From assembly GCF_057098645.1 (NCBI RefSeq), contig NZ_CM169472.1: DNA of 64,000 nucleotides; one strand, written 5' to 3'. Numbering within the stretch: the stretch's first letter is position 1; each line of letters begins with the position of its first letter. This document shows positions 17,501 through 23,500 of the stretch, one piece after another. The position numbers were made by a program.

Positions 17501-20500
17501 GGCATCCGCATCACCAGGCCAGAGATTTTTCACATGTACCGAACTTAACCAGGACCGCGTTCTGTACTTCAAGGGACAGCTTGTCAAAATTGACGTTAAT
17601 AGGATCGGATTCTGGTTCGACCGGAATAAAGGAAGCGGATTCCTCATCCCAGCGGTTTTCCTGCATATATTCGGTATCCCAGGAGTCGATAGCAGGGCGG
17701 GGCATGCCGGGTTTATCTTCACAGACAAGAAATTTATAAGCGCAGTCCTGAGCAGCAGGATATTGCTCCAGGAATTGCCAGGTAAATTTGGCACGGGCGC
17801 GGCGTTCATCACCGGCTTCAATGGCAGTGGCTACAGCAACTGCGCCCTCTTCTTTTATTGCCTGTTCGTCCGGAATGGCGGCGCAAATAAAGACTTTACT
17901 CATTTTGTTTTAACCTCATTACAGATTTAAGGGTGAACAAATCCCTGCCATTGCTGGCATATAAAAATGAAACCGGATATTAATTACGGTGCTGTTTTAA
18001 AGTCCTGCCGGTATTTCGTTATTATTAGTGTGAGTAGTTTTATCTACCGGATAACAGTTACCGGGAATTTTTTGTTCTGCTGCTGCAGCCATGCATTCTT
18101 TCATTGAACCGTATAAGCCAGTCACCAGCTCAAGAGATTCGCCGGAAACAAGATAAACTGTCAGAACGAGTGCAAATGTTGTATTCATTGTTTATATCCT
18201 TTTTGCAGCAGGTCCAGACGAGCCAGCATTGAAGGAATGCATACTTCATTTAACAGGTCCTGCTCGAGTTTTCTCTGCTTAATGGCGTCTTCAATAAATG
18301 TTTTGTCTCCAGTGATAACGCCAATTTCGAAACGAAGTTCAGACGTGCTGGCATTACATGATAACTTTTCCATTATCGCGTCCTCAACAATGAATTTTGT
18401 GATGCGGTGCCTGGTGCCTCCAGGTGACGTTAACCAGTTAACAATTAACGCCGGATACAGAGAATCCACCCATAACACTGTTTTTGGTTTTAACTGTTCC
18501 GCGTGCGCTGAGCCGCATTCACCGCATCACAAAATTCACTTTTAAAAAAGGGCGGCAGAGCAGTTACGGAGTAAAACTGATACCGCCAAATGTCACCAGA
18601 ATATTGATAACAGAGGGCGTTGTAGCGGGGTTGTCACTTAAGCGTATGGTCAACCTGACAACCCGGTGTCCTCAACTGGGGAAGGAATAACCCCGCCATA
18701 CTTACCGCCGCGCCATTTCGCGGATTGCCACAACCGGAAGCGCACGTTCGAAGAAATCTAACGACAAGCCTTCTAAGGGAAAGAGCTTCGCCGTACGCTT
18801 TCGCGTTGTGTGCCTGCTTTTAACCACGTCAGGCGAGGTGGTTTCCGTCGTTCCCCAACGACAGGAAATCTGTATAATCTGGATATCCCCAACAACAGGA
18901 AGGTGTTTTATATGGTGGTTCAAAAGAATTGTTCAGGTACTGGTAAGCCTGCGGACAGGTCGGACATTCCGAATACCAGGAAACATATACCTGAGAAAAA
19001 CATTCGACCAAAACCATCTCCAGCTCCTTCAGAGGAGAGGGGGAACAGCAACAATCAAACAAGCAGGTGATGATATATGGACCGGGATGATATTCTTGAC
19101 AGGGTTTTATATGGTTATTTTCTTGAACAACTATTCTCTGTAGCGACTGGTCGTCTCGATAAACTTCTCTCAGTGGTGAGTATTATCCTCGGTTTATCTG
19201 TCATTGGTGGATTTATTCCTGAAGTTTCTGGAGTTCTCATTGTTGTGATAGCAACCGTTCAAACGATTTACGGATTCGGACAAAAGTCAGGTAACGCAAT
19301 GAGAAAATCCGCAGAATATCTGCAGCTTTATGATGATGCAGAAAAATATTCCGATTCGGAATTGAAAATGCAGTTAAAGCTCCTGGAAAAAACAGATGAT
19401 AATATTTGGTCGTCGCTTAAAGATATCGCAATCTTAAAAAACCAGATCAAAATAGGAATCTCCGTAGAACAACAAGAGAAACTGTCTGCAAAATCCAAAT
19501 TGATGCGATTCCTTTGTGGTTAGGAATACCCAGATTGTTAAAGAGCATGCCGGATGCTTACCCGTGTCCGGCGAACGTATTCCACTTCGCCTGTGGAGAA
19601 CTCTTTAATTACTAACCTTCATCAGTCAGAGTTTCTTGCTAACCAGCGACGCGCGCCAGCTTCCGTTTTAAACGTTTTGCTTCTGGTATACGTCATCGCG
19701 GTGAACGTGCCGTCCAGGTTGGGGAATACTCCGCATACCAGAGATTCGTTGTTGCCAAGATTGAGCATATCCATGTTGACCTCATTTACCCTTAACGCCG
19801 GGTCGCGGAACTAAAAACCTGCTGCGCTGTTATACAAAGTGTTCCCGCCGTCATGTTCATACGCCTCGGGCTGGCTACTTAACCCCTGGCCACTGCCGGG
19901 TAACTCGAGGTATTGCCCTGCATTCTGTGGGGTGGGTGGGTGATGAATAAACAATAGCACTGCTATTTTATTGTGTAAATAGTAATGCTATTGTTTTTTT
20001 GGAGGTAAGAAAAAAAACCACCCGAAGGTGGTTGTTGGTAGGAATGATTAACAGCTTTTGTTTGGATACTGCCTTCGTGAGTGAACTACATTTACGATCT
20101 CGATGTTAGATGCTGTTACTCGGTAAAGTATTATGTAGTTAGGATGGGTCACTATCTCACGAAGGCCTAGAGCTCTTTCGCTTGGTGGATACAGGTAAGG
20201 GTGTTCAGAAAGTGACAAAACTGATGTTTCAATGCGTATTTTTAGTCTACGTGCAGCGGGAGGGTTTTCCTTGGCAATATAGGCTACGATCTGACGCAAA
20301 TCATCACGCGCAGAAGGTAGCCATAAAATGGGCAGCATTACTCACTCCTGTTCGTCGAAGCTATTTGCGCAATAAGGTTTTCCATTTCAGCCATTACTTC
20401 GTCATGCGGAATTGCAGGACGGGGGTCTGCGAGGCTTGCTGCCACTTTGGTGCGTAACCATTCGTTATAGCTGTTTTCTTGTTCGATTGTTTCAAATTCT

Positions 20501-23500
20501 GAAATTATCGGGGAAAGGACTGTACTCATGTTCTAACCTCCTCAGATTAGGCGCGACGACCTTTTTGCGCCTCTAGCCACCGCGCAACGGTTTCTTCAAT
20601 TGATTCTTTTTTCTCCTTCATTTCCTTAAGCATTTTCTCTTTGTCTTCTTTTGGGAAAGCCCTGAACGTCTGGATCAAATCTCGCTCTATAGGTTCTATA
20701 TTAAACGGAAGTTCGTTTTCCGATTGCTCCATCTCTGCGGGTAAAGCGACAACATTATCCTGCTGCAGTTCTTGGGGGTACATCCTTACAATTCGTAACA
20801 AGTCTGCCATATCTGGTCTAATTGACTCAGGCGGAACTTGTAGCAACCCAGCGAACTTGATAACAGCCTCTAGATTTAAAGGTGTCTGACCATTTAGATA
20901 ATGGCTTACTGCCCCTTGTGTCGAAAAACCCAGAATTTCTGCCGCACGCTCTTGGGTTAACCCAAGTTGAGTTTTTTTCGTCGTCCAGATTTCTTTCAGT
21001 CTCTGGGCGGCTTGCAGGTCGATCTCTGACAGGGGTTTTCTTTTCATACCTTCAATTCTAATAAGATTATTAATCTCTTTGAAATAGCGATGCTATTTAC
21101 TTTTAAAAATAACAATGTTATTAATGCTCATGGTCACATAACATGAGGTGAACAATGAATCTTGGAGAATATTTGCATCATTCCCGTATAACCCAGAAAG
21201 ATTTTGCTGAAATTGTTGGGGTAACCCAAGGGATGGTAAGCCATGTTATTACTGGACGGGCGAAACTTACGGGGGGGGAAAGTTTTACGCTGGTGTGAAG
21301 CAACAGGGTGGGTAGTGACCCCGCACGAGATTGATAGCAGTACTTACCCCAACCCAACCGATGGCATACCTGTTGACTATCAGGCTAACACACAACCCGC
21401 GCTGGGAGTTGATTCATGAAAATCAAGCATGAGCACATCCGCATGGCGATGAATGCCTGGGCATACCCTGATGGTGAGAAAGTTCCTGCAGCTGAAATAG
21501 CCCGGACTTATTTCGAACTGGGGATGACGTTCCCGGAACTGTACGACGACAGCCATCCGGAAGCCCTGGCTCGTAATACCCAGAAAAATTTCCGCTGGGT
21601 AGAGAAAGACACCCCTGATGCAGTTGAAAAAATTCAGGCGTTGTTACCAGCGATCGAAAAGGCAATGCCACCTTTGCTGGTGGCAAGAATGCGCAGCCAC
21701 AGTTCAGCTTATTTTCGGGAGCTGGTGGAGACGCGGGAGCGACTGGTGAGAGACGCTGATGATTTTGTCGCAGTGGCAATCGCCGGTTTCAATCAGATGA
21801 ACCGTGGTGGCCCGGCAGGAAATGCTGTGGCAGTGCATTGAGTGATAATAGCCATATCGAATCGCTTCCGGCAACTCGTGAGTAAAAAGATTCGGTATCA
21901 GAAGAGGTGAGTATGGCTAACGCCTGGCTCAGATTATGGCATGACATGCCAAATGACCCTAAGTGGCGAACAATTGCCAGGGTGTCAGGGCAGCCAATTG
22001 CAACAGTGATGGCAGTGTATATCCACCTCCTGGTGAGCGCGTCACGAAATGTCACGCGAGGTCACATTGATGTCACGACAGAAGATTTGGCAAGTGCGCT
22101 CGACGTGACAGAAGAGGTAATTGATTCAATTTTGCAGACGATGCAGGGGCGGGTACTTGATGGTGATTTAATCACTGGATGGGAAAAACGCCAGGTGCTT
22201 AAAGAGGACAACGGCAATATTTCGCAAACCGCAAAATCTCCTGCAGAGCGCAAGAGGGCGCAGCGAGAGAGGGAAAGAAAGCGGGAACAAAATGGCGATT
22301 GTCACGGCGCGTGGATTTGCCCCTATATTTCCAGACATCTGTTATCACTTAACCCATTACAAGCCCGCTGCCGCAGATATTCCCGTGGCGAGCGATAACC
22401 CAGCGCACTATGCGGATGCCATTCGTTATAATGCTCGAACGCCTCTGCAAGGTTCTTTGCTGCCGTTAACCCGTCTGGTTTGGGCATGATACTGATGTAG
22501 TCACGCTTTATCGTTTTCACGAAGCTCTCTGCTATTCCGTTACTCTCCGGACTCCGCACCGCCGTGTTCTTCGGTTCAAGTCCCAACATCCGGGCGAACT
22601 GGCGTGTTTCATTAGCCCGGTAGCATGAACCATTATCCGTCAGCCACTCCACTGGAGACGACGGAAGATCGTTGCCGAAGCGGCGTTCCACCGCTCCCAG
22701 CATGACGTCCTGTACTGTTTCACTGTTGAAGCCGCCGGTAGTCACCGCCCAGTGCAGTGCCTCACGATCACAGCAGTCCAGCGCGAACGTGACACGCAGT
22801 CTCTCTCCGTTATCACAGCAGAACTCGAACCCGTCAGAGCACCATCGCTGATTGCTTTCTTTCACGGCCACTCTGCCTGTATGTGCCCGTTTCGATGGCG
22901 GTACAGCAGGTTTTCGCTCAAGCAACAGCGCATTCTGGCGCATGATCCGGTAAACACGTTTGGCATTGATCGCAGGCATACCATCAAGTTCTGCCTGTCT
23001 GCGAAGCAGCGCCCATACCCGACGATAACCATACGTGGGCAGCTCTCCGATAACATGGTGTATACGGAGAAGCACATCCGTATCATCAGTGTGACGACTG
23101 CGGCGGCCATCCATCCAGTCATCGGTTCGTCTGAGAATGACGTGCAACTGCGCACGCGACACCCGGAGACAACGGCTGACTAAGCTTACTCCCCATCCCC
23201 GGGCAATAAGGGCGCGTGCGCTATCCACTTTTTTGCCCGTCCATATTCAACGGCTTCTTTGAGGAGTTCATTTTCCATCGTTTTCTTGCCGAGCAGGCGC
23301 TGGAGTTCTTTAATCTGCTTCATGGCGGCAGCAAGTTCAGAGGCAGGAACAACCTGTTCTCCGGCGGCCACAGCAGTAAGACTTCCTTCCTGGTATTGCT
23401 TACGCCAGAGAAATAACTGGCTGGCTGCTACACCATGTTGCCGGGCAACGAGGGAGACCGTCATCCCCGGTTCAAAGCTCTGCTGAACAATTGCGATCTT

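What the first reader, a model, noticed from the sequence alone, without database searches (positions are those of the whole stretch)
20048..21047. Three-gene ParE-type toxin-antitoxin operon in the prophage repressor position
An HTH regulator divergent from the cro-like gene is followed within 18 nt by a 63-aa antitoxin and a ParE/RelE toxin with overlapping stop/start, ending at a terminator. The regulator sits where cI/RacR would be, so it may serve as both TA regulator and prophage repressor, coupling prophage maintenance to toxin control.
Basis: partly seen in the sequence, partly recalled or inferred. Interest (0 to 1): 0.6.

Follow-up and report, generated by a model that had tools for sequence, protein, structure and literature searches.

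The report
PaaR-PaaA-ParE prophage immunity toxin-antitoxin operon
This is a correctly spotted but already described kind of three-gene toxin-antitoxin operon, in which a lambda-CI-like prophage repressor also drives a ParE toxin and its antitoxin; here it is a new immunity variant in a decaying E. coli prophage.

Summary
Three minus-strand ORFs lie at 20547-21047 (166-aa HTH regulator), 20338-20529 (63-aa antitoxin) and 20048-20338 (96-aa toxin). The gap is 17 nt, the stop/start overlap is TAATG, and a strong terminator follows. The toxin is a ParE2 homologue and the antitoxin a PaaA2 homologue. The closest relative is the CP-933M paaR1-paaA1-parE1 locus of E. coli O157:H7 (86% and 89% aa identity).

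Local support for the idea:
- Four 15-bp palindromes (AATARYNNTGYTATT) occur only at an OR-like and an OL-like site.
- A PRM-like promoter would give a leaderless mRNA.
- A perfect YdaT (CII-analogue) box lies at the ydaS/ydaT junction.
- No other CI-like ORF is in the window.

What differs here:
- The regulator is a chimera. Its N-terminal domain is lambda/Stx-phage CI-like (54% identical to a Stx2a phage CI). Its C-terminal 64 aa are PaaR-type. It has no S24 cleavage domain.
- The cro-like ydaS gene is frameshifted.
- The prophage is defective (IS2 in the O-like gene, a deletion in exo).

Verdict: real, interpretation supported, an ordinary new member of a known kind.

The parts
20547..21047 (-). 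paaR-like regulator, a CI analogue. Residues 1-~100 form a lambda/Stx-phage CI-type HTH N-terminal domain. Residues ~103-166 form a PaaR-type C-terminal domain. There is no S24 peptidase domain.
   Evidence: ORF. Pfam HTH_3 at 27-74. Lambda CI NTD, PDB 1lmb, E 1.6e-9 over residues 2-82. 54% identity over residues 2-90 to the CI of Stx2a phage Lyz12581Vzw. The C-terminal 64 aa are 58% identical to the CP-933M regulator. The C-terminal motif is conserved in PaaR1, PaaR2 and this protein. The DicA C-terminus hits at 9e-7.
20338..20529 (-). paaA-like antitoxin (63 aa, no DNA-binding domain)
   Evidence: PDB 3zbe PaaA2, E 1.7e-22. Pfam PaaA2 PF21217, 3.7e-22. NCBIfam NF050103 scores 92 bits against a cutoff of 50. 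86% identical to the CP-933M antitoxin.
20048..20338 (-). parE-like toxin (96 aa), start overlapping the antitoxin stop (TAATG)
   Evidence: PDB 5cw7 ParE2, E 2.2e-35. Pfam ParE_toxin, 4.3e-18. 89% identical to the CP-933M toxin. dN/dS 0.04 against CP-933M.
20006..20033 (-). intrinsic terminator closing the operon
   Evidence: 7-bp stem with 4 GC pairs, a 4-nt loop and a T8 tail.
21055..21083 (-). PRM-like promoter (-35 TTCAAA, 17-nt spacer, -10 TAGAAT). The -10 hexamer ends 7 nt before the A of the regulator's ATG at 21047, so the mRNA is predicted to be leaderless.
   Evidence: Promoter scan and sequence. No Shine-Dalgarno sequence lies at a usable distance. Leaderless paaR2 and cI are documented in PMC8630535. 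The transcription start here is inferred.
21083..21097 (.). OR operator AATAGCGATGCTATT. It abuts the PRM -35 and overlaps the PR -35, an OR2-like position.
21108..21122 (.). OR operator AATAACAATGTTATT, lying between the -35 and -10 of the PR-like promoter (an OR1-like position)
21060..21074 (.). possible degenerate third operator AATAAGATTATTAAT. It overlaps the PRM -10 and spacer (an OR3-like position) and lies 23 bp centre-to-centre from the neighbouring site.
   Evidence: Read and inverted repeat I15. It has 3 mismatches to the consensus, so it is not significant on its own.
21096..21124 (+). PR-like promoter for ydaS-ydaT (-35 TTTACT, 17-nt spacer, -10 TATTAA). Inferred.
   Evidence: It aligns with the PL-like promoter within the 40-nt repeat D1/I1. 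It falls below the scan threshold.
19953..19992 (.). OL-like pair of operators (AATAGCACTGCTATT at 19953-19967, AATAGTAATGCTATT at 19978-19992), 1130 bp from the OR pair
   Evidence: The motif is absent from the PaaR1 and PaaR2 loci, which carry their own repeats at the same two positions.
19951..19979 (-). PL-like promoter (-35 TTTACA, 17-nt spacer, TG-extended -10 TATTGT). It points left into the DUF1391/ydfA-like, dicF and dicB genes.
   Evidence: DicF lies at 18550-18601 on the minus strand. dicB is annotated.
21155..21419 (+). ydaS (Cro-analogue) gene. It is frameshifted by a G8 run at 21271-21278 where the intact 87-aa allele has G7.
   Evidence: Alignment. Intact protein from strain OkiPb01717. 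PHROG 35 transcriptional repressor, 4e-16.
21409..21426 (.). YdaT operator (OM-like) TTGATTCATGAAAATCAA, at the ydaS end / ydaT start
   Evidence: It is the only perfect match to TTGATTN6AATCAA in the window. It is invariant in all three PaaR locus types. The site is defined in PMC9986795.
21416..21841 (+). ydaT (CII analogue)
   Evidence: PHROG 163, CII-like activator, 5e-43. 87% identical to CP-933M YdaT.

Best explanation
The locus is a heteroimmune allele of the PaaR-PaaA-ParE three-component module. That module forms the immunity region of Rac/Qin/CP-933M/P-type lambdoid prophages of E. coli.

Inferred mechanism for the regulator:
- It is the CI analogue.
- It binds 15-bp palindromes at OR (two good sites and one degenerate) and at OL (two sites, 1.1 kb away).
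- It represses the rightward PR-like promoter (ydaS-ydaT-replication genes).
- It represses the leftward PL-like promoter (ydfA-like, dicF, dicB, exo).
- It autoregulates its own leaderless PRM-like transcript.

That transcript continues through paaA and parE to the terminator. The TA pair therefore sits where lambda carries rexA-rexB and is expressed whenever the prophage is repressed.

PaaA has no DNA-binding domain and neutralises ParE by direct binding. Because PaaA is protease-labile, loss of the region releases ParE (addiction). This would stabilise the immunity region.

The regulator lacks an S24 domain, so it should not be cleaved on SOS induction. In this particular window the Cro analogue is frameshifted. 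The switch is therefore predicted to be locked in the repressor/TA-on state.

Shown here: gene identities, architecture, operator statistics, mosaic structure and purifying selection. Inferred by homology to published CP-933P experiments: binding, repression, leaderless start, toxicity and addiction.
For: Identity of toxin and antitoxin.

Regulator domains.

Operators found only at OR and OL. The 40-nt two-operator unit is repeated at both places. The operator sequence co-varies with the regulator's N-terminal domain across the three locus types.

Promoters and terminator.

YdaT box.

Synteny with CP-933M and with the PaaR2-type locus.

No second CI-like ORF.

dN/dS of 0.04-0.10 for parE, paaA, the paaR C-terminal domain and ydaT.

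Published experiments on the homologous system report:
- an operon repressed by PaaR2;
- DNase footprints at OR;
- repression of PR, PRM and PL;
- leaderless paaR2;
- YdaT activation of PRE;
- bistability;
- plasmid stabilisation by the locus.
Against: No binding, transcription or toxicity data exist for this allele.

Its DNA-binding domain is unrelated in sequence to PaaR1 and PaaR2, so operator assignment rests on repeat statistics and position alone.

The PR-like -10 (TATTAA) is below the scan threshold.

The third OR site is weak, and only two OL sites are seen.

The prophage is defective: ydaS frameshift, IS2 in the O-like gene, 388-bp deletion in exo. 'Prophage maintenance' here can therefore only mean silencing of residual early genes.

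Jurenas et al. detected no ParE2 activity in either transcriptional state. The biological pay-off of the TA remains open.
Confidence: 0.85

Rival explanations
1. The regulator is only a dedicated TA regulator, in effect a 'split antitoxin' DNA-binding module. It has no role in prophage immunity.
For: PaaA lacks a DNA-binding domain, so a separate regulator is needed in any case. Jurenas et al. raise the split-antitoxin idea themselves.
Against: The same operator pair sits 1.1 kb away over a PL-like promoter that points at dicF/dicB. The OR sites overlap the divergent PR-like promoter. The N-terminal domain is 54% identical to the CI of inducible Stx2a phages. There is no other repressor in the window. 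PaaR2 represses PR and PL in experiments.
Confidence: 0.04
2. The paaA-parE pair acts mainly as a Rex-like exclusion or abortive-infection cassette against superinfecting phages. On this reading it is expressed from the repressor transcript as rexAB is in lambda, rather than serving as an addiction module.
For: It occupies the rexA-rexB position downstream of the repressor on the same transcript. TA systems in prophages often defend against phages (general knowledge, not tested here).
Against: No PADLOC defence model matches any of the three proteins. The homologous locus stabilises plasmids by post-segregational killing. No phage-triggered activation is known. This reading is not exclusive of the main explanation.
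Confidence: 0.08
3. The trio is a non-functional relic of a decaying cryptic prophage.
For: The surrounding prophage carries a ydaS frameshift, an IS2 in the replication gene, a deletion in exo and an IS21-family insertion.
Against: All three ORFs, the promoter, the operators and the terminator are intact. dN/dS against CP-933M is 0.04-0.09. The locus is 99-100% conserved in several lineages.
Confidence: 0.03

Closest known systems
paaR1-paaA1-parE1 of cryptic prophage CP-933M, E. coli O157:H7 EDL933 (Hallez et al. 2010, cited in PMC8630535)
   Same: Gene order, spacing and flanks are the same: DUF1391/ydfA, dicB and exo to the left, ydaS-ydaT and replication genes to the right. The antitoxin is 86% identical, the toxin 89%, YdaT 87%, and the regulator's C-terminal 64 aa 58%.
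   Different: The regulator's N-terminal ~100 aa, the OR and OL operator sequences and the 5' half of ydaS are unrelated (25-41% nt identity, which is background level). The regulator is 166 aa here against 133 aa.
paaR2-paaA2-parE2 / ydaS-ydaT immunity region of CP-933P (Jurenas et al. 2021, PMC8630535; Prolic-Kalinsek et al. 2023, PMC9986795; PDB 5cw7, 3zbe, 7nkv)
   Same: A three-component operon in the cI-rexAB position. It has a PRM-type promoter giving a leaderless mRNA, OR and OL operator sets, PL, an identical YdaT box TTGATTCATGAAAATCAA, a conserved PaaR C-terminal motif and no S24 domain.
   Different: The toxin is about 64% identical to ParE2. PaaA2 aligns over residues 4-56 at E 1.7e-22. 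The authors describe PaaR2 as lacking sequence similarity to CI, whereas this regulator's N-terminal domain matches the lambda CI NTD at E 1.6e-9 and does not match the PaaR2 NTD. Operators here are 15-bp AATARYNNTGYTATT, against the GTTTAGTAA-type 18-bp palindromes of CP-933P. Here ydaS is frameshifted.
Lambda cI-rexA-rexB with OR/OL, and the LexA-family CI repressors of Stx2a phages
   Same: The N-terminal domain is homologous, including the basic N-terminal arm (KRKPLS against KKKPLT). The promoter and operator geometry is the same, with operators 23-25 bp apart and a leaderless PRM. Accessory genes are co-transcribed downstream of the repressor.
   Different: There is no S24 autocleavage domain. 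The C-terminal part is the short PaaR/DicA-like helical region. The passengers are a TA pair, not rexAB.
Canonical two-gene parDE (RK2, Vibrio cholerae parDE2)
   Same: A ParE-fold toxin neutralised by a small labile protein encoded upstream.
   Different: The antitoxin has no RHH DNA-binding domain, and autoregulation is delegated to a third protein.

Membership tests
PaaR-PaaA-ParE three-component TA | Toxin homologous to ParE2 (ParE fold) | tested here: met
   PDB 5cw7, E 2.2e-35 over residues 1-93. Pfam PF05016, 4.3e-18. 57 invariant columns across the four ParE sequences.
PaaR-PaaA-ParE three-component TA | Short PaaA2-type antitoxin without a DNA-binding domain, encoded directly upstream of the toxin | tested here: met
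   Pfam PaaA2 PF21217, 3.7e-22, with no HTH or RHH hit. PDB 3zbe, 1.7e-22. TAATG overlap.
PaaR-PaaA-ParE three-component TA | HTH regulator gene first in the same operon | tested here: met
   Gene order, a 17-nt gap, one promoter upstream and one strong terminator downstream. Co-transcription itself is not testable with these tools.
PaaR-PaaA-ParE three-component TA | Regulator homologous to PaaR1/PaaR2 | tested here: inconclusive
   The C-terminal 64 aa are 58% identical to PaaR1, and the motif is shared with PaaR2. The N-terminal DNA-binding domain is not PaaR-like but CI-like. Homology therefore covers one domain only.
PaaR-PaaA-ParE three-component TA | Location in a lambdoid immunity region, divergent from ydaS-ydaT | tested here: met
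PaaR-PaaA-ParE three-component TA | Toxicity, neutralisation, ClpXP/ClpAP-labile antitoxin, post-segregational killing | not testable with these tools
   Known only for the CP-933P system.
PaaR-PaaA-ParE three-component TA | Regulator binds OR and OL and represses PR, PRM and PL | not testable with these tools
   Candidate operators are statistically supported and correctly placed, but binding was not tested.
Lambda CI / LexA-type (S24) phage repressors | N-terminal CI-type HTH domain | tested here: met
   PDB 1lmb, E 1.6e-9. 54% identity to the Stx2a phage CI NTD, E 2e-32 in pairwise comparison.
Lambda CI / LexA-type (S24) phage repressors | C-terminal S24 peptidase domain enabling RecA-stimulated autocleavage | tested here: not met
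   No Peptidase_S24 hit in Pfam. The alignment to the 239-aa CI stops at residue 90. The protein ends at residue 166 with the PaaR-type tail.
Canonical ParD-ParE | Antitoxin with an N-terminal RHH DNA-binding domain that autoregulates the operon | tested here: not met
   Only the PaaA2 domain is detected.
DicA (Qin prophage repressor, NCBIfam NF007257) | Score above the curated family cutoff | tested here: not met
   28.7 bits against a cutoff of 101. Only the C-terminal 56 residues align.

The most novel reading that the evidence does not exclude
The locus is a natural domain swap. A CI-type DNA-binding domain, with its matching OR and OL operators and the N-terminal half of cro/ydaS, has been exchanged around a fixed core. 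That core is the PaaR C-terminal domain plus paaA-parE, and the YdaT box and ydaT are also kept.

This would be direct comparative support for the published but untested proposal that the TA module constrains immunity-region recombination to events that retain it. It would also show that the PaaR C-terminal domain is a portable, non-cleavable substitute for the S24 domain of CI.

In addition, the G7/G8 tract in ydaS could be a slip-strand switch that locks the immunity state on.
Probability: 0.25. Interest if true: 0.4.

Novelty: new member of a known kind. Interest (0 to 1): 0.2.

Why it matters
It matters little beyond annotation. RefSeq labels the three genes only generically ('helix-turn-helix domain-containing', 'RelB family antitoxin', 'RelE/ParE family toxin'), and the regulator could be labelled a PaaR-type CI analogue.

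The modest added value is comparative. This allele supplies the sequence link between PaaR-type regulators and genuine CI repressors that was reported as missing for PaaR2. It also shows that immunity specificity is swapped in two separate patches (OL, and NTD-OR-cro) around a conserved TA core. This gives the Jurenas et al. hypothesis of 'TA-guarded immunity regions' a concrete set of natural recombinants to analyse.

Tried and rejected
- **PADLOC:** scanning the three proteins, YdaT and the neighbouring 148-aa ORF gave no defence-system hit.
- **Regulator C-terminus against phages:** tblastn of the C-terminal 64 aa against 50,697 phage genomes gave no match. BLAST's low-complexity filter may have masked this K/E-rich query. 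PHROG 5736 does match residues 119-165.
- **Strain identification:** searching with the IS2/O-gene junction found no complete E. coli genome carrying the same insertion.
- **PaaR2 structures:** only the PaaR2 N-terminal domain (7nkv, 8c3k, 8c3l) is solved. It does not match this regulator.
- **The 237-aa HTH ORF at 32012-32725:** I considered it as a possible second repressor because it has lambda CI's length. It is AraC-type, with HTH_18 at the C-terminus and no S24 domain.
- **Terminator-like sites inside paaR:** the sites at 20722-20706 and 20951-20966 are weak. The total count is within the shuffle expectation, so I treated them as noise.
- **Sandbox errors:** searches failed because locus L002 is stored inside L001.fa. 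I redid the comparisons with the tools and with alignment A4.
- **Not run:** AlphaFold and fold search. Sequence-level evidence was already decisive, and a monomer model would not test oligomerisation.

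
Full report
**Observation**

- A 166-aa HTH protein at 20547-21047.
- A 63-aa protein at 20338-20529.
- A 96-aa protein at 20048-20338.

The first gap is 17 nt and holds a GAGGAGG ribosome-binding site. The second junction is a 1-nt stop/start overlap, TAATG. A strong intrinsic terminator follows at 20033-20016: a 7-bp stem, a TTCG loop and a T8 tail. A cro-like HTH gene starts divergently at 21155, 107 bp from the regulator's ATG.

**Identity of the parts**

- Toxin: it matches the crystal-structure sequence of E. coli O157 ParE2 at E 2e-35 over its whole length. It matches Pfam ParE_toxin at 4e-18.
- Antitoxin: it matches PaaA2 (PDB 3zbe, E 2e-22; Pfam PaaA2, 4e-22). 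It has no DNA-binding domain.
- Source: the DNA is E. coli. The 1.55-kb region is 99-100% identical in O145:H28 and related strains, and 71 of 5426 complete genomes hold at least 80% of it. paaA-parE-like DNA is found in 840 of 5426 genomes.
- Closest characterised relative: the CP-933M locus of EDL933, the paaR1-paaA1-parE1 paralogue. The antitoxin is 86% identical, the toxin 89% and YdaT 87%.
- The PaaR2-type locus was recovered from strain E24377A. Its regulator starts MQKKE, as sequenced by Jurenas et al., and its toxin is identical to the PDB ParE2 sequence apart from that sequence's C-terminal residue.

**The regulator is a chimera**

Its last 64 residues are 58% identical to PaaR1. They share an invariant motif with PaaR2: L.Q.F.AFP...E.K.KK.S.E...ARW..AQK.RRA. 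This region also resembles the C-terminus of DicA, the Qin prophage repressor (9e-7, well below the family cutoff).

Its first ~100 residues have no PaaR similarity. Instead:
- They match the lambda CI N-terminal domain, including the basic N-terminal arm (PDB 1lmb, E 1.6e-9).
- They are 54% identical to the N-terminal domain of the 239-aa LexA-family CI of Stx2a-converting phages.
- No S24 peptidase domain is present.

Full-length 166-aa relatives occur in E. coli, E. albertii and Shigella sonnei. All carry only generic names. Proteins of about 244 aa share only the N-terminal domain.

**Regulatory DNA**

Operators:
- The 15-bp palindrome AATARYNNTGYTATT occurs four times in 64 kb: at 19953, 19978, 21083 and 21108. 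Chance expectation is 0.59 with up to 1 mismatch allowed, and 0 of 100 shuffles reached the observed count.
- The two pairs form a 40-nt unit repeated 1130 bp apart.

At OR:
- One site lies between the -35 and -10 of a PR-like promoter. The other abuts the -35 of a PRM-like promoter (TTCAAA-17-TAGAAT).
- The PRM-like -10 ends 7 nt before the A of the regulator's ATG. The mRNA would therefore be leaderless, as shown for paaR2 and lambda cI.
- A degenerate third site overlaps PRM at lambda-like spacing.

At OL:
- The sites overlap a PL-like promoter directly downstream of the TA terminator.
- It points into a DUF1391/ydfA-like gene, DicF and dicB.

YdaT site:
- The YdaT operator TTGATTN6AATCAA has exactly one perfect match, at 21409-21426 on the ydaS/ydaT junction.
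- This is where Prolic-Kalinsek et al. footprinted it.

**Comparative evidence**

I aligned the window with the PaaR1 and PaaR2 loci. Values below are nt identity to the PaaR1 (CP-933M) and PaaR2-type loci.

Conserved segments:
- Left flank: 80-86%.
- ydaT: 84-91%.
- paaA: 84% and 69%.
- parE: 75% and 55%.
- paaR C-terminal domain: 66% and 52%.

Two patches at background identity (25-41%):
- OL/PL.
- paaR-NTD, OR and the 5' half of ydaS.

The window's operator motif is absent from the other two loci. CP-933M carries its own repeat at the same two positions. Operator sequence therefore co-varies with the regulator's N-terminal domain, as expected for an immunity determinant.

dN/dS against CP-933M is 0.04 for parE, 0.08 for paaA, 0.09 for the paaR C-terminal domain and 0.10 for ydaT. 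The products are under purifying selection, although dS for parE is near saturation.

**Is there another repressor?**

A six-frame phmmer search of all 839 ORF fragments of at least 40 aa hit only this ORF. The regulator probe also gave a weak hit to the ydaS remnant.

RefSeq annotation of near-identical prophages, from integrase to tRNA-Ser, lists no other Xre or S24 regulator. The 237-aa HTH protein at 32012-32725 is AraC-type.

**What is known**

- Hallez et al. 2010 defined paaR-paaA-parE as three-component TA systems in CP-933M and CP-933P (cited).
- Jurenas et al. 2021 (PMC8630535) showed the following:
  - PaaR2 is a functional CI analogue, leaderless and lacking the S24 motif.
  - PaaR2 and YdaS footprint on OR.
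  - PaaR2 and YdaS both repress PR, PRM and PL.
  - YdaT activates a PRE-like promoter.
  - The region is bistable.
  - The locus stabilises plasmids.
- Prolic-Kalinsek et al. 2023 state that paaA2-parE2 replace rexA-rexB.

**What is particular here**

1. The CI-like N-terminal domain supplies the sequence link to CI that was reported as lacking for PaaR2.
2. The cro analogue ydaS carries G8 instead of G7 at 21271-21278. This truncates it to 47 aa and uncouples it from ydaT.
   - The same allele is in strains C325 and RM12761. The intact allele is in strain OkiPb01717.
   - In the published reporter, ydaS stop mutants lose the ydaST-on population. This locus should therefore be locked repressor/TA-on.
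   - A homopolymer sequencing error cannot be excluded.
3. The prophage is degraded in several other ways, while the trio stays intact:
   - IS2 at ~22313-23642 in the O-like gene.
   - A 388-bp deletion in exo.
   - An IS21-family element at 33772-35741.

**Verdict**

This is a real, correctly interpreted locus and a new heteroimmune member of a known, experimentally characterised kind. Interest is low (0.2). The most novel reading still open is that these loci document TA-anchored immunity swapping and a portable non-cleavable repressor C-terminal domain.

Noticed in passing
window 21155-21419 (G-run 21271-21278): The cro-like ydaS gene is frameshifted by a G8 run where the intact allele (87 aa, strain OkiPb01717) has G7. 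The same G8 is present in strains C325 and O145:H28 RM12761. It could be a clonal pseudogene, slip-strand variation or a homopolymer sequencing error.
   Followed up: partly
window ~22313-23642: A 1.33-kb IS2 (InsC/InsD ORFs at 23186-23596 and 22323-23228) is inserted in the phage replisome-organiser (O-like) gene, splitting it into 21907-~22312 and ~23643-24319. No complete E. coli genome in the collection has the same insertion.
   Followed up: partly
window ~17524-17526: A 388-bp deletion relative to strain C325 lies inside the 2.4-kb exonuclease gene. It leaves two overlapping out-of-frame ORFs (15860-17821 and 17511-17903).
   Followed up: partly
window 33772-35741: An IS21-family element (IstA 390 aa, IstB 266 aa) sits just upstream of the 562-aa ORF at 35790-37478, where related prophages carry an intact 616-aa SASA-family esterase. 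The esterase is probably truncated by the insertion.
   Followed up: no
window 18550-18601 (-) and 18185-18330 (-): A DicF sRNA (Rfam, 77 bits) and dicB lie downstream of the PL-like promoter. The PaaR-like repressor therefore probably also keeps these cell-division inhibitors silent, as DicA does in Qin.
   Followed up: partly
window 27854-28028 (+): A second, type I toxin-antitoxin system (sok RNA, Rfam 107 bits, with hokD annotated in related strains) lies in the same prophage.
   Followed up: no
window 19077-19523 (+): A 148-aa ORF with two predicted hydrophobic helices is transcribed against the PL operon, between dicB and the ydfA-like gene. It matches PHROG 6315 (unknown function) and has no Pfam or PADLOC match. 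It looks like a moron of unknown role.
   Followed up: partly
window 32012-33270: The late-region cargo includes an AraC-type 237-aa regulator (32012-32725), three tRNAs (32754-33000) and the sRNA STnc100 (33080-33270).
   Followed up: no
L002 3868-3905 and 4900-4945 (CP-933M): CP-933M carries its own repeated palindrome (ACAATAAAAAACTGTT / AACAGTTTTTTATTGT) at both the OL and OR positions. These are candidate PaaR1 operators, which I did not find described in the papers I read.
   Followed up: no
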